Positions 2,641 to 34,954 of a DNA stretch of 35,246 bases are shown piece by piece; position 1 is the first letter of the stretch; each line of letters starts with the position of its first letter. The notes under the pieces are model-generated. The model had not been told where the DNA came from and did no database searches. It worked only from the letters and a program-made list of their open reading frames with translations. Made by a program: the position numbers and the translations under genes. Origin of the DNA: a virus; UHGV virus genome UHGV-0095853, one strand, 5' to 3'.

Positions 2641-3294
2641 CTATCCCTTCTTGAAATCAAAGTTGCTTGCGATAGCCTGGAAGGTGCCTCCAGCCTTGAA
2701 ATCAATATTTTCGTCGGCTGTCACAGTAATGTTTTTGCCATTAACGCTGATGTTATCGGCTGATTTGACGTTAACACTCCCTCCCGCATTCACTACTACA
2801 TCAGCCGGACCAATGATGTATATCTGCCCTGATTCATTCATTCCAATCCTTGAGCCTGCTGCCGTATTCGCTATTTCATATCCACCGCCAGCCGTTCGCA
2901 CTTCGAGCACATTGTTGCGGTGAATCACGAAATCTTTTGTCGCCGAAAATTGCGGGCGGGGAGGCGCTCCGTCTACTTCTGGTGGCGTCCAGCCGCTACC
3001 ATTGCCTGACGCCTCCGGCGCGACGTTTGGTACTCCGCCAGGCGCATCCTGAGCTGCGCCAACTATCATTGGGCGTCTGGTATCAATTCGACCATTAACA
3101 TCCAGATAAGGAAACTCTACCCATACCAGGTCGCCTTTTACTGTAGGTACAAACGCGTTACCTATGGGTAACAGGTATTCTGCCCAGGGTAGATCGTCAT
3201 CAGGAACGCCATTCCAGTCTGGTAAAACACGGACCTGAGCACGCATAAGCCCTGCCGGGTGCACAGTTCCAACAATTTGCGCTCTACGCTTCAT
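2641..3294 (-). CDS. Phage protein of unknown function; N-terminal OB-fold-like region and C-terminal Gly/Asn-rich beta-repeat resembling gpV/gp45-type baseplate spikes (tentative)
   Basis: VRVLPDWNG..LPWAE..VKGDLVWVEF pattern then VNAGGSVNVKSADNISVNGKNITV repeats; ATG overlaps upstream stop (ATGA). Confidence 0.55.
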   Translation of the reverse strand: MKRRAQIVGTVHPAGLMRAQVRVLPDWNGVPDDDLPWAEYLLPIGNAFVPTVKGDLVWVEFPYLDVNGRIDTRRPMIVGAAQDAPGGVPNVAPEASGNGSGWTPPEVDGAPPRPQFSATKDFVIHRNNVLEVRTAGGGYEIANTAAGSRIGMNESGQIYIIGPADVVVNAGGSVNVKSADNISVNGKNITVTADENIDFKAGGTFQAIASNFDFKKG

Positions 3295-4271
3295 TTGTTC
3301 GGCACTCCCAATATCATTCGTGTTGTGTAGCCTACGCGGTCTTCAAAGTGCGCAACATTTTTTACTATCAGCTTACGGGGCATTGATTCATCAATGCGGT
3401 TTTCCTGGTCATAGCGGTATACGATAATCTCTATCACCATCCCCGGTTTTATATCAGGATTGCCTGCGACTTCTATATCCATTTTGGGGACGAGAGACAG
3501 CTGCATATTGCGAAGAGTTTCCATATCAGAGTCGGATATATAACGCACTGGGAGTGAGCTATCGCCATATTCGACGTAGCCATCGGTCATGGAATACCCA
3601 ACAAAACGATATTGATTCTTTGCTGTTGTCGCATGTTCCTGTTGGAGTAGGCGCATTTTGGACAAAGTGTATTCTGCTTTAGGGTTATTCCCCTCGTAGG
3701 TAAATGATGGCGTTTGCTTCATCAGATCAGCCAGGGTGTAAAAGTTAAATTCCCCCCGGCATACCCAACATAATGCACCTTTGTCTCGCGCTATCTCCGA
3801 AAGCATTTTTGACGGTTTGTCACCGGCATTCAGATGATATGTAACTGCGCGTTTTAGCACGCTGCTGGTAATTTTAAGCTTGCCGGAATATGCCTTGAAT
3901 ATAGCGTCTGGTGTTTTGTTGGTATGTAAATTTGTGCGCGGGGAGGGGATCTTAAACCTGCGCACGTCTTCACTGACAGCAATAACGGTAACAACATCAC
4001 CAGCCAGCATTGCAGACGTAACAAAGAAATCTGTTTTAAAAGTGCCTGCATTACCGTTTGGATCGCCCATTTCAGCCACCAGCGATGCACCGTATTTGGC
4101 TTTCCAGTCATCAATTACGGTGCCGGTAGCGTCATGAATTTCCAGTTTTAGCAAAGGGGCTTTGAGGCTGGTTTTTTCTACATATACTGCGGTAAAAATC
4201 CAGTCTCGTGGCACTTTGTTATCGTTAATGAGCACTGACTGTAGAAAATATTGTTGTAACTCCTGGGCCAC
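3291..4271 (-). CDS. Hypothetical protein (326 aa)
   Basis: Long ORF, GTG start 4 nt after upstream stop, co-oriented in a 4-gene operon. Confidence 0.6.
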   Translation of the reverse strand: MAQELQQYFLQSVLINDNKVPRDWIFTAVYVEKTSLKAPLLKLEIHDATGTVIDDWKAKYGASLVAEMGDPNGNAGTFKTDFFVTSAMLAGDVVTVIAVSEDVRRFKIPSPRTNLHTNKTPDAIFKAYSGKLKITSSVLKRAVTYHLNAGDKPSKMLSEIARDKGALCWVCRGEFNFYTLADLMKQTPSFTYEGNNPKAEYTLSKMRLLQQEHATTAKNQYRFVGYSMTDGYVEYGDSSLPVRYISDSDMETLRNMQLSLVPKMDIEVAGNPDIKPGMVIEIIVYRYDQENRIDESMPRKLIVKNVAHFEDRVGYTTRMILGVPNK

Positions 4272-11354: not shown

Positions 11355-11371
11355 AAATGTTAGAAAACTAA
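11355..11371 (+). promoter_or_regulatory. Single operator-like site AAATGTTAGAAAACTAA at the 3' end of ref
   Basis: Near-identical to the site 25 nt upstream of gene 28613..29650. Confidence 0.35.
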
Positions 11372-11946
11372 TTTATCAATTCAATCGCCATCTGATACAA
11401 CGCCATTTCATCGGCATTGTGCCGCATGAAATCTGCTTTTCCGCCTATTTTTCCGTCAGCATGAACAGGGACCAGCCAGGGATATTGTTCTCGGACCTCG
11501 GCTGGCGCTGCGTACTGGTGGTGCCATTTACACAAAGGGAGGACATATTTATGCGCGTTCTCTGCCGTTCTCCCGAAGATATGGTGCAGGGATACCACTG
11601 GGCTATGTTGCCCGTGAATATGGCAGGCAATGCAGGGGAGAGTACCGATAGCGGTCTGTATCCGGCGTTCATCGGCTGTGAGTGATCTTCCTTTCAGGCC
11701 GCGTGACGTGCGTGTTTTTTTGGACGGAGCTGATACAGCTTTATCTTTTCTCCGCTGTTCATATTGCTTTGCTTTTTCAATTTTCTTTTGCCGATATTCA
11801 GGCGATGCGGCTTTTTCTCTCGCTCGCTGCTGCTGGCGTTGAGCTTGTTGAAGGCGCTTTGCCCTTTGTTCCTCTCGCCAGGCCGGGTCAGCCAATTTTT
11901 GCATGGCTTTTTGTCTCTGTTTCTCCCAATAACTCTGTTTCTGCAT
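11368..11946 (-). CDS. ref: Ref-like HNH endonuclease (P1 recombination enhancement function family)
   Basis: About 80-aa highly charged, probably disordered N-terminus then Cys/His-rich core (CIACHIHG...HHIFGR...CKWHH); divergent promoter carries operator pair. Confidence 0.6.
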   Translation of the reverse strand: MQKQSYWEKQRQKAMQKLADPAWREEQRAKRLQQAQRQQQRAREKAASPEYRQKKIEKAKQYEQRRKDKAVSAPSKKTRTSRGLKGRSLTADERRIQTAIGTLPCIACHIHGQHSPVVSLHHIFGRTAENAHKYVLPLCKWHHQYAAPAEVREQYPWLVPVHADGKIGGKADFMRHNADEMALYQMAIELIN

Positions 11947-11990
11947 GATGGCAGTCTCTTACTTTTCAACGATTTTTCTATGATTGATCA

Positions 11991-12031
11991 AAATGGTTAG
12001 ATATTCAAAATTGATTTTCTAACACAAAACA
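11991..12031. promoter_or_regulatory. Inverted operator pair (GTTAGA-N17-TCTAAC) in the divergent ref / DUF4406 promoter region
   Basis: GGTTAGATA at 11995-12003 and TTTTCTAACAC at 12015-12025, followed by a TAATAT -10-like hexamer. Confidence 0.45.
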
Positions 12032-12063
12032 TTAATATCATTCCTGATAACTGTTTGGAGGAC

Positions 12064-12219
12064 ATGATGCTTATAGCTTTAAGTGCGATCCACCAGCCAT
12101 CTGTGAATGAAATTGGCCTGTTCTATGTGTTGTTTTTCGGGGCGTTGGCGCTACTTGAGCTTGGTATTGAGCTTTTCGCAGTGCTTATGTTTTGCGTCAC
12201 GATTTTGGGGAAATTTTGA
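12064..12219 (+). CDS. Small hydrophobic membrane peptide (51 aa)
   Basis: GGAGG immediately upstream of tandem ATGs; stop overlaps the next gene's ATG (TGATG). Confidence 0.4.
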   Translation: MMLIALSAIHQPSVNEIGLFYVLFFGALALLELGIELFAVLMFCVTILGKF

Positions 12220-12842
12220 TGGTGAAACGTGTTTTGAAAATTTACATCGCGGGGCCGATGACTGGTTATCCAGATTACAACCGTGCTGCGTTTAATGCGA
12301 AAGCGAGCGAGTTGATGGCTGAAGGGCATATCGTTCTGAATCCAGCTGTGTTACCTGGTGGCCTTTGTCAGAGTGAATACATGGATATTTGCCTGGCAAT
12401 GGTGCGTTCTGCTGATGCGATCTATCTGCTTAAGGGATGGGATGTGTCCGCAGGAGCACGTGCAGAACACGCTCTGGCTGAAAAACTTGGGTTGACGGTA
12501 ATTTATGAAGCACCATCTGACACAGATTGCAGAATGGCAGCGCATCTTTACCGTGAACTGGTCGATGCGTTACGTGATGTTGCTATTGAATGTCACGGCA
12601 CGGATCAGCTTCGCGCCCGCTTAAGCAATACCCTTTCCAGTTACCTGTCTTTAGCTGAAGGATACAACCTCCGGCAGCGGAGAATGGTCAAATTAATCAC
12701 GCGTTTATCTCAATCCCTGGCAAATGCCGAACCAACTAATCCGCTAGCTAATGACGCAATGAATTATCTGAAGTCATGCGGCGTTGTTTCTGAAGATGCA
12801 GTTCGTTTTGTGGAGTTTATGTCTCAGAGGATGTCGGCGTGA
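12219..12842 (+). CDS. DUF4406-like protein (nucleoside 2-deoxyribosyltransferase-like fold) with about 100-aa C-terminal extension
   Basis: N-terminal KIYIAGPMTG...VLNP...ADAIYLLKGWDVSAGARAEH pattern; ATG at 12219 preferred over the TTG at 12192. Confidence 0.55.
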   Translation: MVKRVLKIYIAGPMTGYPDYNRAAFNAKASELMAEGHIVLNPAVLPGGLCQSEYMDICLAMVRSADAIYLLKGWDVSAGARAEHALAEKLGLTVIYEAPSDTDCRMAAHLYRELVDALRDVAIECHGTDQLRARLSNTLSSYLSLAEGYNLRQRRMVKLITRLSQSLANAEPTNPLANDAMNYLKSCGVVSEDAVRFVEFMSQRMSA

Positions 12843-13156
12843 GCTGGCGGGGATGGGGAAGGGCGGAAATCATGATACTCCGCCAGTGCGCCGGGACTAT
12901 GACAGTCGAGACTATTGGGAGACTGATCGGACGTACCGGTGGCGCAGTCAGGACTAAAGCGCGGCAACTGCGGATCAGCATGATTCTGAAAGGAGACTTT
13001 CACCAGTCAGCCAAATACCGGCAGAGCGATATAGAACTGGCGCGGCAGCTTCATCAGTGTGGTGTTCCCCGCCGTGAGATCGCGGAAAAACTCGAAATGC
13101 CCCTGGGCATGATTAATCAGTACGTTTATTTCGAAAGGAGAGTGTATGAAGTCTGA
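12839..13156 (+). CDS. Hypothetical protein (105 aa), possible HTH
   Basis: GTG start overlapping upstream stop; GVPRREIAEKLEM helix-turn-helix-like segment. Confidence 0.45.
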   Translation: MSWRGWGRAEIMILRQCAGTMTVETIGRLIGRTGGAVRTKARQLRISMILKGDFHQSAKYRQSDIELARQLHQCGVPRREIAEKLEMPLGMINQYVYFERRVYEV

Positions 13157-13628
13157 AGGTTTAACGCCCGCACAACTGGCAGAGCGTAACGCTGAGTATG
13201 TAACGGAAATTTCCCGACTTGAGCAAGAACGCTCGGCGCTGGCGGCGGAGAATGTTGGGCTGAAACATGCAATGGCTGTAACTCTTGAGCATGTGTCGGT
13301 CACGGATGCAGGGCAGGCCGGAGTTGCTGCAATGATTATCAACGATGCTCTGCACCACAGCGAAACCCCAGCCACCGATGCTTTTATGGCTGAAGGGAAG
13401 ACTGAAGCACGCAAGGAAGGCGCTTATTTTGTGGCGAACAGAATGCTGGCTGCCTGGAAAGCTGGTTTTATTGATGATACTGCGAAGAACGCCGCGGATA
13501 TTGCCCGGATGATTCTTACCTCTACTGAGTTTATGGCTAATGCGCCGGAAGGCGATTTTGATCGCTCATTCTCTGATGGCGTTCTCGAAGATATCGCCGA
13601 ACAGCTTCGTAAAGGAGTCATCCAGTGA
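13146..13628 (+). CDS. Ea22-like family protein (C-terminal module paralogue)
   Basis: Shares PATDAF(M/L)AE and C-terminal AEQLRKG with 17394..18026; AGGAG before ATG. Confidence 0.55.
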   Translation: MKSEGLTPAQLAERNAEYVTEISRLEQERSALAAENVGLKHAMAVTLEHVSVTDAGQAGVAAMIINDALHHSETPATDAFMAEGKTEARKEGAYFVANRMLAAWKAGFIDDTAKNAADIARMILTSTEFMANAPEGDFDRSFSDGVLEDIAEQLRKGVIQ

Positions 13629-14266: not shown

Positions 14267-14511
14267 GTAATACCGCACGACTACAGCTTGGTTTTTCACC
14301 GCTATCAAAAACCATCGTGTTGGCAAAAATGCGTGACTTAGGGGATGGAACAAAACGTCGTGTCGGCAATGATCGCGGTCGTGATGTTACCAACGAGGCC
14401 GCACAACTCGTTTGGCATCTAGTCATGGCTGAAGGCGGTGAAATTAATTGGGAGCTGGATGATGGTTCTCGCATGGTATTAAAGGCAGAAAAGCAGGAGC
14501 CACCACAGTGA
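14263..14511 (+). CDS. Hypothetical protein (82 aa)
   Basis: GTG start coupled to upstream stop (GTGA); conserved AAAGGAGGCAAAC junction. Confidence 0.45.
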   Translation: MSNTARLQLGFSPLSKTIVLAKMRDLGDGTKRRVGNDRGRDVTNEAAQLVWHLVMAEGGEINWELDDGSRMVLKAEKQEPPQ

Positions 14512-14783
14512 ATATCGACACCACGATAACGATCGATACGGCTCTAAATACCGGTCTGGCACTTCTCGGTTGGTTTTACATCATGTTCAGTGCGGGGAAG
14601 TGGGCGGCTTCTGTTTTTCTAAAACAGTGGGGAAAGCGCCGCAAACAGGAAAAACGCCAGAAAGCGTTGGAGGCGTTCTATGACGCATTTGAACTTAGCC
14701 GCATTGAGCCAGGCACAACAGCCAAGATAGCGACAAAAGGCGACCTGATGATAGTGATGTTCAGACAGGAGAAAACCAAATGA
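14508..14783 (+). CDS. Hypothetical small membrane protein (91 aa)
   Basis: One hydrophobic helix (LALLGWFYIMFSAG) followed by basic stretch. Confidence 0.45.
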   Translation: MNIDTTITIDTALNTGLALLGWFYIMFSAGKWAASVFLKQWGKRRKQEKRQKALEAFYDAFELSRIEPGTTAKIATKGDLMIVMFRQEKTK

Positions 14784-34466: not shown

Positions 34467-34542
34467 TGGTGGCCCCTACCGGACTTGAACCGGTGACCGT
34501 GCGATTATGAGTCGCCAGCTCTAACCACTGAGCTAAAGGGCC
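34467..34542 (-). tRNA. tRNA with CAU anticodon, closest to tRNA-Ile2 (ileX/ileY type, lysidine-modified)
   Basis: GGCCCTTTAGCTCAGTGGTTAGAGCTGGCGACTCATAATCGCACGGTCACCGGTTCAAGTCCGGTAGGGGCCACCA; about 10 differences from E. coli ileX as recalled. Confidence 0.8.
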
Positions 34543-34680: not shown

Positions 34681-34954
34681 CACTTGCAGCTACCTTTTAA
34701 GACAAAACGCCATTGCTGTTAGATTGCGGTGCCGGGTGCCTCCCGGTGACGTTAACCAGTTAACAATTAACGCCGGGATGTTTGACTTAACTATTGAGGA
34801 AAATTGTTTTAACTGTTCCGCGTGCGCTTAGCCGCATTCACCGCAATGGTAAGAGCACTTGGCTGGCTGGGCGGCGATGACGCCTGTACGCATTTGGTGA
34901 TCCGGTTCTGCTTCCGGCATTCGCTTAATTAGCCAAATACTCTTAACGTTGCGC

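What the first reader, a model, noticed from the sequence alone, without database searches (positions are those of the whole stretch)
12064..12842. Small membrane peptide coupled to a DUF4406 (deoxyribosyltransferase-like) protein
A 51-aa hydrophobic peptide gene ends in TGATG, overlapping the start of a DUF4406-fold protein with an extra 100-aa C-terminal domain. They open the long plus-strand operon just after the operator pair. The fold suggests nucleotide or nucleoside chemistry; a role in signal degradation or DNA modification is speculative.
Basis: inference. Interest (0 to 1): 0.4.

Follow-up and report, generated by a model that had tools for sequence, protein, structure and literature searches.

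The report
Phage-plasmid early genes: membrane peptide, DUF4406
Two real but ordinary early genes of a D6-like E. coli phage-plasmid sit here: a 50-residue membrane peptide found only in this phage lineage, and a widespread phage enzyme of unknown function that probably cuts the base off a nucleotide.

Summary
The window is a D6-like (P1-family) phage-plasmid of E. coli, and both ORFs are already annotated in phage D6 as orf88 and orf89.

- **Small ORF (12064/12067-12219).** It is a genuine gene. It is intact in 31 of 31 related viral contigs, dN/dS is 0.03-0.26, and it is the most hydrophobic short ORF in the window. It occurs only in D6-like elements.
- **DUF4406 ORF (12219-12842).** It hits Pfam DUF4406 strongly, and its model matches nucleoside deoxyribosyltransferase and CMP N-glycosidase structures. 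Its invariant Tyr9 and S77-x-G79-x3-E83 motif align with the catalytic Tyr and Glu of those enzymes. Ser77 aligns, weakly, with the 5'-phosphate-binding Ser87 of DNPH1/Rcl.
- **C-terminal 100 residues.** This is a four-helix add-on built from modules shuffled among lambdoid early proteins. It is absent in one D6-like lineage.
- **Operator.** A palindromic operator-like site lies just upstream.
- **"Coupling".** It is positional only. Every gene junction in this operon overlaps, and DUF4406 occurs in lambdoid and Mu-like phages without the peptide.
- **Most likely function.** The enzyme is probably a dNMP/NMP N-glycosidase that remodels the nucleotide pool early in lytic growth, and the peptide probably acts separately. 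The substrate is untested.

Interest is low to moderate.

The parts
11996..12023 (.). Palindromic operator-like site (two 13-nt half-sites, GTTAGATATTCAA / TTGATTTTCTAAC) between divergent ref and the plus-strand operon. Presumed binding site of the C1-type repressor.
   Evidence: Inverted repeat, 85% complementary. The half-site motif with up to 2 mismatches occurs 9 times in the window against 1.25 expected, and 0 of 100 shuffles reach 9. The palindrome is conserved in three divergent lineages and present in 28 of the IMG/VR loci. Repressor binding is inferred, not tested.
12011..12038 (+). Candidate weak sigma-70 promoter of the plus-strand operon: -35 TTGATT at 12011-12016 inside the right half-site, a 16-nt spacer, and -10 TAATAT at 12033-12038.
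   Evidence: Read directly from the sequence. Equivalent hexamers with 16-17 nt spacing occur in L002 and L004. It matches only 8 of 12 consensus positions, so the consensus scan, which needs 9 of 12, did not report it. Inference only.
12057..12061 (+). Shine-Dalgarno GGAGG of the small ORF.
   Evidence: AGGAGG and GGGAGA lie at the same place in L002 and L004.
12064..12219 (+). Small hydrophobic peptide gene (D6 orf88, phrog_8890). It is 51 aa from ATG 12064 and more likely 50 aa from ATG 12067. It carries a conserved LAL(L/F)ELGIELFA core with two glutamates spaced i/i+4.
12204..12208 (+). Internal Shine-Dalgarno-like GGGGA (GGAGA in L004), 10 nt before ATG 12219 and inside the last codons of the peptide gene.
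   Evidence: Sequence reading. Inference.
12219..12518 (+). DUF4406 catalytic domain (residues 1-100) with an NDT-superfamily alpha/beta fold. Invariant residues are G12, P13, N21, F25, G36, P42, L71, S77, G79, E83 and A87.
   Evidence: Pfam hit at E 7e-34. AF2 pLDDT is 83-97 over this domain. Foldseek matches 2a0k, 6qai, 8pqt, 4ohr and 4jen. HMM alignment to T. brucei NDT. hhalign to Rcl. Conservation counts.
12519..12842 (+). C-terminal helical extension (residues 101-207 plus the stop codon), built from two shuffled modules. Module A is YRELVxALRDxAxxxHGTxQLRxR. Module B is LRQ..V..RL..SL..A.P...L...A..YL.
   Evidence: All-helical with pLDDT 60-87. No structural match in the PDB. The modules recur in DUF551 and other uncharacterised proteins. 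The extension is missing from the 97-aa L004 version.

Best explanation
These are the first two genes of a repressor-controlled early operon of a D6-like (P1-family) phage-plasmid. The operon is transcribed divergently from ref, across a shared palindromic operator.

**Gene 1.** It encodes a 50-aa single-pass membrane peptide that is specific to the D6 lineage and under purifying selection. It most likely acts on its own at the inner membrane. Its target is unknown.

**Gene 2.** It encodes a DUF4406 enzyme of the nucleoside-deoxyribosyltransferase superfamily.
- It most likely works by covalent catalysis through Glu83, positioned by Tyr9, cleaving or transferring the N-glycosidic bond.
- The substrate is most likely a 5'-phosphorylated (deoxy)nucleotide, as in DNPH1/Rcl and the phage enzyme DmtZ.
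- The effect would be to remodel or sanitise the nucleotide pool at the start of lytic growth.
- The C-terminal helical region is an optional, recombinationally acquired add-on, perhaps for oligomerisation or partner binding. It is not part of the catalytic unit.

**Junction.** The 1-nt stop/start overlap reflects the tight translational packing of the whole operon, not a dedicated two-component system.

**Shown:** gene reality, fold, conserved catalytic motif, genomic context. **Inferred:** repressor control, membrane insertion, substrate class, biological role.
For: **Element identity and gene reality**
- The region is 100% identical to an E. coli plasmid and 92% identical to phage D6, where both genes are annotated.
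- The peptide gene shows dN/dS of 0.03-0.26 and an excess of third-position variation. It is intact in 31 of 31 contigs.
- The best 19-residue hydropathy window scores 2.2-2.3.

**Fold and catalytic motif**
- Pfam DUF4406 at 116 bits.
- The AF2 N-domain has pLDDT 83-97. The top PDB matches are all NDT, MilB or BcmB.
- A profile search of the solved-structure sequences aligns IYIAGP and the invariant Glu83 with the IYIAGP and catalytic Glu of T. brucei NDT.

**Hints to a phosphorylated substrate**
- hhalign places S77/G79/E83 on Rcl S87/G89/E93.
- In Rcl, Ser87 and backbone amides bind the 5'-phosphate and Glu93 binds the ribose (PMC3834327).
- In the T. brucei NDT alignment, the position matching Ser77 is an Asp.
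- DUF4406 is fused to dNMP kinase in P0116 and P0117.
- It also appears in a PHROG family annotated as MazG-like pyrophosphatase, and the model matches viral proteins named as dATP/dGTP diphosphohydrolase.
- A phage NDT-superfamily enzyme, DmtZ, is a proven dAMP hydrolase/transferase. It occurs fused to a dNTP diphosphatase (PMC12884076).

**Independence of the two genes**
- The peptide occurs only in D6-like elements.
- DUF4406 occurs without it in lambdoid and Mu-like early regions.

**Operator**
-.
Against: - No biochemical or genetic data exist for any DUF4406 protein in the searchable literature.
- The Rcl alignment is weak (E 0.095). DNPH1 was not among the top 50 structural matches, which were nucleoside-specific NDTs and CMP glycosidases.
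- The general-acid Asp/Asn of NDTs has no clear equivalent. V44 and L45 align there, although N41 is conserved (N in 35, D in 4, S in 3 of 42).
- D6-type phages are not known to have modified DNA, so the need for nucleotide-pool remodelling is unexplained.
- The peptide plus DUF4406 N-domain block is invariably linked across all D6-like lineages while downstream genes vary. This is also compatible with a functional link.
- The promoter is only an 8 of 12 consensus match.
- Membrane insertion rests on hydropathy alone.
Confidence: 0.45

Rival explanations
1. The DUF4406 protein is a classical nucleoside 2'-deoxyribosyltransferase. It swaps bases between deoxynucleosides for salvage and does not act on nucleotides.
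For: The best structural and profile matches are the purine deoxyribosyltransferases of T. brucei and L. mexicana and the C. thermalis NDT. The IYIAGP motif is identical to that of the T. brucei enzyme. Several databases name phage relatives 'nucleoside 2-deoxyribosyltransferase'.
Against: The residue six positions before the catalytic Glu is an invariant Ser, as in DNPH1, and not the Asp seen at that position in the T. brucei NDT alignment (PMC3834327, PMC12884076). Fusions are to dNMP kinase and dNTP pyrophosphatases, which make or use monophosphates. Pfam PF05014 does not hit this protein. The database names are transferred annotation, not tests.
Confidence: 0.12
2. The DUF4406 protein is a counter-defence enzyme. 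It destroys NAD-derived or other nucleotide immune signals, or the NAD-related products of defence systems, by cleaving a glycosidic bond.
For: It sits in an early accessory region with mosaic gene content, which is typical of anti-defence loci. From general knowledge, the NDT fold belongs to the same broad group as enzymes that act on NAD and ADP-ribose glycosidic bonds, and some retron effectors are NDT-like (titles). The family is widespread in phages with no known role.
Against: There is no similarity to any PADLOC model and no known anti-defence annotation. No paper links DUF4406 to defence. The fusions point to dNTP/dNMP metabolism rather than signalling.
Confidence: 0.12
3. The peptide and DUF4406 form a functional pair, for example a membrane-tethered enzyme or a toxin-antidote-like pair. 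The stop/start overlap would then ensure stoichiometric co-expression.
For: The peptide gene, the TGATG junction and the DUF4406 N-domain are invariably linked in all D6-like lineages, including the one where DUF4406 lacks its C-terminal region and the downstream genes differ. The DUF4406 ribosome-binding site lies inside the peptide's last codons.
Against: Invariable linkage is also expected for the two genes nearest a shared promoter. All later junctions of the operon overlap in the same way. DUF4406 occurs in many other phages without any such peptide. The peptide has no relatives outside this lineage. No interaction prediction could be run.
Confidence: 0.12
4. The small ORF is only a translated leader. 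Its translation couples or regulates expression of DUF4406, and the peptide product itself has no function.
For: It is the first ORF after the promoter, it has a strong Shine-Dalgarno, and it overlaps the next start codon. It is frameshifted in two of the nine plasmid or phage loci read in full (L005, L007).
Against: There is strong purifying selection on the amino-acid sequence, for example 10 synonymous against 1 non-synonymous change versus L006 and dN/dS of 0.06 versus L002. A 12-residue core is invariant in lineages with saturated synonymous divergence. DUF4406 has its own Shine-Dalgarno-like sequence. Both frameshifts are single-base indels that could be sequencing errors: the L007 one lies in a G run, and the L005 one follows a C run in an unannotated Shigella record.
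Confidence: 0.05

Closest known systems
Phage D6 orf88 / orf89 (YP_009914765 / YP_009914766) and their copies in D6-like plasmid prophages
   Same: Same two genes in the same place, between ref and the DNA-binding/Ead-like genes. The region is 92% identical in DNA. The peptide is 100% identical, and the DUF4406 N-domain is identical up to about residue 70.
   Different: The second half of DUF4406 and the C-terminal region are mosaic (207 aa here, 203 aa in D6; 77% identity for the 203-aa class). No function is assigned in D6 either.
DNPH1 / Rcl (2'-deoxynucleoside 5'-phosphate N-hydrolase; PDB 2khz, 4fyh)
   Same: Same superfamily fold. The N-terminal glycine-rich loop after strand 1 aligns (YIAGPMTG against YFCGSIRGG), and S-x-G-x3-E aligns with the Ser87/Gly89/Glu93 phosphate- and ribose-binding motif (PMC3834327).
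   Different: No significant sequence match (hhalign E 0.095). It was not among the top 50 structural hits. Activity is untested. DUF4406 has its own invariant residues (N21, F25, P42, W74) that were not identical in the pairwise alignment with Rcl.
DmtZ of Z-genome actinophages (Ghobes AOE44404.1; Wayne DmtZ-DutZ fusion)
   Same: A phage-encoded NDT-superfamily enzyme with a Tyr/Glu catalytic core that acts on a dNMP. It is found fused to, or next to, a dNTP diphosphatase. This parallels the DUF4406 links to MazG-like and DUF5664-type pyrophosphatases and to dNMP kinase (PMC12884076).
   Different: The authors found no Pfam model for DmtZ and built their own HMM, so it does not appear to be a DUF4406 member. 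DmtZ serves 2-aminoadenine DNA synthesis, and nothing suggests modified DNA in D6-like elements.
Nucleoside 2'-deoxyribosyltransferases (T. brucei 2a0k, L. mexicana 6qai, C. thermalis 8pqt) and CMP N-glycosidases MilB/BcmB (4ohr, 4jen)
   Same: Best structural matches (Foldseek E 2.6e-4 to 5e-2, probability 1.0, about 100 aligned columns). The IYIAGP motif and the catalytic Glu are shared.
   Different: The domain is shorter (about 97 residues against 150-160). An invariant Ser replaces the Asp six positions before the catalytic Glu. No clear general-acid Asp is present. PF05014 does not hit.
P1 ref controlled by the overlapping C1 operators Op2a/Op2b (from general knowledge of P1)
   Same: A Ref homologue (PF16786) lies next to a palindromic pair of operator-like half-sites whose motif recurs at intergenic sites around the genome.
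   Different: Here the same palindrome also fronts a divergent plus-strand operon. The half-site sequence differs from the P1 C1 operator consensus as I recall it. Binding was not tested.

Membership tests
Pfam DUF4406 (PF14359) | Match to the family HMM above the gathering score | tested here: met
   116.5 bits against a cut-off of 22, E 7.4e-34, residues 7-96 covering profile positions 2-91 of 91.
Pfam DUF4406 (PF14359) | Family-invariant residues present (G12, P13, N21, F25, G36, P42, S77, G79, E83, A87) | tested here: met
   All are present in the window protein and invariant in a 42-sequence alignment spanning 30-90% identity.
Nucleoside deoxyribosyltransferase superfamily (NDT / DNPH1 / MilB) | Flavodoxin-like alpha/beta fold with a parallel sheet | tested here: met
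   The AF2 model has four strands alternating with helices and pLDDT 83-97. The top PDB matches are NDT, MilB, BcmB and BlsM at probability 1.0.
Nucleoside deoxyribosyltransferase superfamily (NDT / DNPH1 / MilB) | Catalytic glutamate nucleophile after the fourth strand, plus a tyrosine in strand 1 | tested here: met
   Invariant E83 aligns with the Glu of GTAFEVG in T. brucei NDT and with Glu93 of Rcl. Y9 in IYIAGP aligns with the Tyr of IYIAGP and VYFCG.
Nucleoside deoxyribosyltransferase superfamily (NDT / DNPH1 / MilB) | General acid Asp (or Asn) following strand 2/3 | tested here: inconclusive
   In the HMM alignment the Asp and Asn of T. brucei IPTDN face V44 and L45. The nearest conserved polar residue is N41 (N 35, D 4, S 3 of 42), just before the invariant P42.
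Classical NDT (Pfam PF05014) | Match to PF05014, and an Asp that binds the 5'-OH six residues before the catalytic Glu | tested here: not met
   There is no PF05014 hit at E <= 0.01. The position is an invariant Ser, where T. brucei NDT has Asp.
DNPH1 / Rcl dNMP N-hydrolases | S-x-G-x3-E motif, with the Ser and loop amides binding the 5'-phosphate | tested here: inconclusive
   S77/G79/E83 align with S87/G89/E93, but the hhalign E-value is only 0.095. The residue roles come from PMC3834327.
DNPH1 / Rcl dNMP N-hydrolases | Significant sequence similarity to DNPH1 | tested here: not met
   DNPH1 chains are absent from the phmmer and hmmsearch results against the PDB at E <= 10.
DNPH1 / Rcl dNMP N-hydrolases | Hydrolysis of dNMP to base plus deoxyribose 5-phosphate | not testable with these tools
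   This needs an enzyme assay.
phrog_8890 (small phage protein, unknown function) | Match to the family HMM over its full length | tested here: met
   E 2.5e-35, residues 2-51 against profile positions 1-50 of 50.
Single-pass small membrane proteins | A hydrophobic stretch of at least 19 residues with membrane-level hydropathy | tested here: met
   The best 19-residue Kyte-Doolittle mean is 2.2-2.3 in all three lineages. A 32-residue apolar stretch is interrupted only by E32 and E36. Actual insertion and topology were not tested.
P1-type C1-repressed operons | Operator motif overlapping the promoter and repeated at many intergenic sites of the genome | tested here: met
   Inverted repeat at 11996-12023. 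The motif occurs 9 times against 1.25 expected. The candidate -35 hexamer lies inside the right half-site.
P1-type C1-repressed operons | Repressor binding, and derepression on induction | not testable with these tools
   This needs EMSA or footprinting and transcript mapping.

The most novel reading that the evidence does not exclude
The lineage-specific 50-aa peptide has an invariant intramembrane E-x3-E motif. In the most novel reading it is a new kind of early phage-plasmid membrane effector that works together with the DUF4406 N-glycosidase. For example, it could recruit the enzyme to the inner membrane to intercept nucleotide signals or nucleotides at membrane-bound defence effectors or transporters. 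That would make the pair a two-part counter-defence module.
Probability: 0.06. Interest if true: 0.6.

Novelty: new member of a known kind. Interest (0 to 1): 0.27.

Why it matters
DUF4406 is one of the commoner uncharacterised enzyme-like domains in phage early and accessory regions: lambdoid, Mu-like and P1/D6-like phages, actinophages and metagenomic viruses. If it is a dNMP N-glycosidase, it would add a further route by which ordinary temperate phages edit the host nucleotide pool. So far that activity in phages has been shown only for a Z-genome enzyme.

The D6-like copy is a tractable model, because it comes from a cultivable E. coli phage-plasmid present in about 1.5% of complete E. coli genomes.

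The peptide shows that a conserved small membrane protein is inconsistently annotated in RefSeq. Beyond that, this locus is ordinary.

Tried and rejected
- **Direct sequence search of DUF4406 against the PDB.** It gave only noise. A profile search was needed.
- **PADLOC and NCBIfam.** PADLOC gave only one sub-threshold match (GajA, E 0.012) and NCBIfam gave nothing for either protein. Pfam gave nothing for the peptide.
- **Literature.** Searches for DUF4406 and PF14359 found no functional study. Broader searches on NDT-like proteins and anti-defence found nothing relevant to this family. The D6 genome paper (PMC5800970) is not held.
- **Peptide homologues.** Searches of 5.8 billion proteins and 50,697 phage genomes found only D6-like copies. 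No context other than this one could be examined.
- **C-terminal region.** A separate model (pLDDT 71) had no meaningful PDB match. No paralogue of the region or of the peptide exists in the window.
- **Promoter scan.** It found no strict sigma-70 site. The proposed promoter is a manual 8 of 12 match.
- **Rfam.** There was no match in or near the locus, so a known structured RNA is rejected as an explanation for conservation of the small ORF.
- **L036.** One IMG/VR hit to the degenerate DNA pattern was an unrelated GC-rich chance match.
- **L004 dN/dS.** The value for the DUF4406 domain against L004 was unusable, because my fixed-frame slices were offset by one codon.
Full report
**What the window is**

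The 2.4 kb around the finding is 100% identical to E. coli plasmid NZ_CP149812.1 and 92% identical to phage D6. D6 is a P1-family phage-plasmid. In D6 the two ORFs are annotated as orf88 (hypothetical, 50 aa) and orf89 (DUF4406, 'similar to N-term half gp57 of phage N15').
- They lie between a divergently transcribed Ref nuclease gene and a run of plus-strand early accessory genes.
- Ref is window 11368-11946 on the minus strand, PF16786.
- The plus-strand genes are a small DNA-binding protein, Ead/Ea22-like proteins, DUF7446, DUF4752, a metallophosphoesterase and a DUF968/PdcB-like protein.
- The locus is present in 81 of 5,426 complete E. coli genomes, always on a plasmid. It is also present in 119 PLSDB plasmids from Escherichia, Salmonella and Shigella.

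**Check of the observation**

The sequence shows GGAGG at 12057-12061, ATG at 12064 and 12067, TGA at 12217-12219, and ATG at 12219 opening a 207-codon ORF that ends at 12842. The coordinates and the TGATG junction are therefore correct.
- The true start of the small gene is more likely 12067, giving 50 aa.
- That ATG has the better spacing from the Shine-Dalgarno. It is the only ATG in the divergent L004 lineage, and it is the start used in D6.

**Is the small ORF a gene?**

Yes.
- It matches phrog_8890 over its full length at E 2.5e-35.
- D6-like plasmids whose DNA here is only 69-73% identical still carry an ORF of the same length, with a strong Shine-Dalgarno and the same TGATG junction.
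- Nei-Gojobori dN/dS is 0.03-0.26. Examples are 10 synonymous against 1 non-synonymous difference versus L006, and 26 against 18 versus L002 with synonymous sites near saturation. This is comparable to the neighbouring enzyme domain at 0.10-0.17.
- Across 17 distinct DNA versions, variable sites fall 22/14/35 by codon position. Within the main lineage they fall 4/2/12.
- A degenerate DNA pattern pulled 32 IMG/VR loci. One was an unrelated chance hit. The other 31 all had an intact 50/51-codon ORF followed directly by DUF4406.
- Two plasmid copies carry single-base frameshifts. L007 has an extra G in a run of Gs. L005, an unannotated Shigella dysenteriae record, lacks one base after a run of Cs. 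Both could be sequencing errors or decay.
- The peptide is the most hydrophobic short ORF in the window, with GRAVY 1.64 against a mean of -0.03 for 143 ORFs. Its best 19-residue Kyte-Doolittle mean is 2.2-2.3. It has an invariant core LAL(L/F)ELGIELFA containing two glutamates one helical turn apart.
- It has no relatives outside D6-like elements, neither in 5.8 billion proteins nor by tblastn against 50,697 phage genomes.
- RefSeq annotates it in some records and not in others, including the record identical to this window.

**The DUF4406 protein**

- Pfam DUF4406 covers residues 7-96 at 116.5 bits against a cut-off of 22.
- A 42-sequence alignment of relatives with 30-90% identity shows invariant G12, P13, N21, F25, G36, P42, L71, S77, G79, E83 and A87. 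Y9, T15, G16 and W74 are nearly invariant.
- The AlphaFold model is confident for the N-domain (pLDDT 83-97) and shows four strands alternating with helices.
- Its best PDB matches are nucleoside 2'-deoxyribosyltransferases from T. brucei, L. mexicana and C. thermalis, and the CMP N-glycosidases MilB, BcmB and BlsM.
- A family profile finds T. brucei NDT at E 4e-4. It aligns IYIAGP with IYIAGP, and the invariant E83 with the Glu of GTAFEVG.
The fold call is supported.

**Nucleoside or nucleotide substrate?**

I recalled the rat Rcl/DNPH1 sequence and checked that it is identical to PDB 2khz. hhalign then places YIAGPMTG on YFCGSIRGG, and S77-A-G79-A-R-A-E83 on S87-L-G89-V-G-Y-E93. The E-value is weak at 0.095.
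- In Rcl, the Ser87 side chain and the backbone amides of residues 18-20 and 89 hold the 5'-phosphate. Glu93 holds the ribose hydroxyls (PMC3834327).
- In the T. brucei NDT alignment, the residue six positions before the Glu is an Asp.
- Workers on the phage enzyme DmtZ note that nucleotide-specific members replace the Asp/Asn that bind the 5'-OH with small uncharged residues (PMC12884076).
- DUF4406 is fused to a T4-type dNMP kinase in P0116 and P0117.
- It matches a PHROG family annotated as MazG-like pyrophosphatase. The model also matches viral proteins named as dATP/dGTP diphosphohydrolase.
- DmtZ, a proven dAMP hydrolase and deoxyribose-5-phosphate transferase, likewise occurs fused to a dNTP diphosphatase (PMC12884076).

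Together these favour a 5'-phosphorylated (deoxy)nucleotide substrate. This is inference. No DUF4406 protein has been characterised in the searchable literature, and DmtZ has no Pfam model, so it does not appear to be a DUF4406 member.

**The C-terminal 100 residues**

- The region is all-helical in the models (four helices, pLDDT 60-87) and has no meaningful structural match.
- An exhaustive HMMER search found only 24 representatives.
- The first 40-45 residues (PHxYRELVNxLRDxAxxYHGTxQLRER) recur at variable positions in uncharacterised proteins of about 100-340 aa, some ending in DUF551.
- The second part (LRQ...RL..SL..A.P...YL) recurs in others, and the two parts also occur together as free-standing proteins of 127-161 aa.
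- One D6-like lineage (L004) has a 97-aa DUF4406 with no extension, followed directly by the metallophosphoesterase gene.
- Among the IMG/VR copies the protein lengths are 203 (17 copies), 207 (8), 119 and 97.
- The extension is therefore a recombinationally acquired, optional module and not part of the enzyme core.

**Upstream region**

- The 117-nt spacer between ref and the small ORF holds an inverted repeat, GTTAGATATTCAA / TTGATTTTCTAAC, at 11996-12023.
- The half-site motif with up to 2 mismatches occurs 9 times in the window against 1.25 expected, and several copies lie next to gene starts.
- The palindrome is the best-conserved part of the spacer in all three lineages.
- Each half-site contains a TTGAWT hexamer that could serve as a -35. 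A weak -10 lies 16-17 nt away in each direction: TAATAT at 12033-12038 for the plus strand, and ATGATT at 11980-11985 read on the minus strand for ref.
- These sites fall below the consensus scanner's threshold and are my reading only.
- The arrangement resembles what is known of P1 ref and its paired C1 operators. That comparison is from general knowledge and was not tested here.

**Are the two genes 'coupled'?**

Only positionally, on present evidence.
- The next junctions of the operon also overlap: GTGA at 12839, 11 nt at 13146, GTGA at 13625, 14263 and 14508.
- DUF4406 genes occur in a lambdoid prophage after the replication genes and in a Mu-like early region between NinH-like and GemA. 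They also occur in other phage gene blocks with mostly unannotated neighbours. In none of these is a similar peptide present.
- The constant linkage of the peptide with the DUF4406 N-domain in every D6-like lineage leaves room for a functional link. I give that 0.12.

**Verdict**

The finding is accurate as an observation. It describes two real, already annotated, functionally uncharacterised early genes of a common E. coli phage-plasmid.
- The most likely mechanism for the enzyme is Glu83-mediated N-glycosidic bond cleavage or transfer on a dNMP/NMP.
- The peptide is most likely an independent small inner-membrane protein.
- Nothing here is categorically new. The value lies in offering a tractable representative of a widespread unknown phage enzyme family.

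Noticed in passing
window 9411, 11359, 11996, 12011, 16043, 27185, 28586, 32000, 33017: The operator half-site motif TTGATTTTCTAAC (up to 2 mismatches; commonest variant TTAGTTTTCTAAC) occurs 9 times against 1.25 expected. Several copies lie next to gene starts, for example before 9445, 16099 and 28613. It looks like the regulon map of the D6-type C1 repressor.
   Followed up: partly
window 11986-11989: A GATC (Dam) site inside the conserved TTGATCAA block sits in the spacer of the candidate ref promoter. It is conserved in all three divergent lineages, so Dam-sensitive promoter control is possible.
   Followed up: no
window 34470-34542 (-) and 34725-34845 (-): A tRNA gene (Rfam 64.7 bits) and a match exactly at the gathering score to the gammaproteobacterial sRNA family STnc100 (47 bits).
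   Followed up: no
window 12064-12219; RefSeq NZ_CP149812.1 and others: The conserved small ORF is annotated in some RefSeq/PGAP records of D6-like plasmids and missing in others, including the record identical to this window. D6 calls it 50 aa and PGAP calls it 51 aa.
   Followed up: partly
L004 (NZ_CP091837.1) 2744-3705: One D6-like lineage has a 97-aa DUF4406 without the C-terminal helical region. It is followed directly by the metallophosphoesterase, so the whole DNA-binding/Ead/DUF4752 block is absent.
   Followed up: partly
window 12519-12660 (residues about 101-147) and proteins P0127-P0146: A roughly 35-residue module, PHxYRELVNxLRDxAxxYHGTxQLRER, with invariant L, R, A, Q, L, R, is shuffled among many enterobacterial phage early proteins, some carrying DUF551. 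Its function is unknown.
   Followed up: partly
L005 (CP026821.1, Shigella dysenteriae) and L007 (NZ_OY757137.1): Single-base frameshifts disrupt the small ORF. L007 has an extra G in a G run and L005 lacks one base after a C run. In L007 the annotated DUF4406 start is also shifted downstream. These could be sequencing errors or real decay.
   Followed up: no
window 12839-13156 (+): The gene after DUF4406 encodes a 105-aa protein matching phrog_323 ('transcriptional regulator, D5-like') with a weak sigma-70 region 4 helix-turn-helix hit. It accompanies DUF4406 in most D6-like lineages.
   Followed up: no
P0080 (169 aa): A DUF4406-DUF4752 fusion protein exists elsewhere. In this window DUF4752 is a separate gene at 14508-14783 in the same operon, which shows how these early genes fuse and split.
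   Followed up: no
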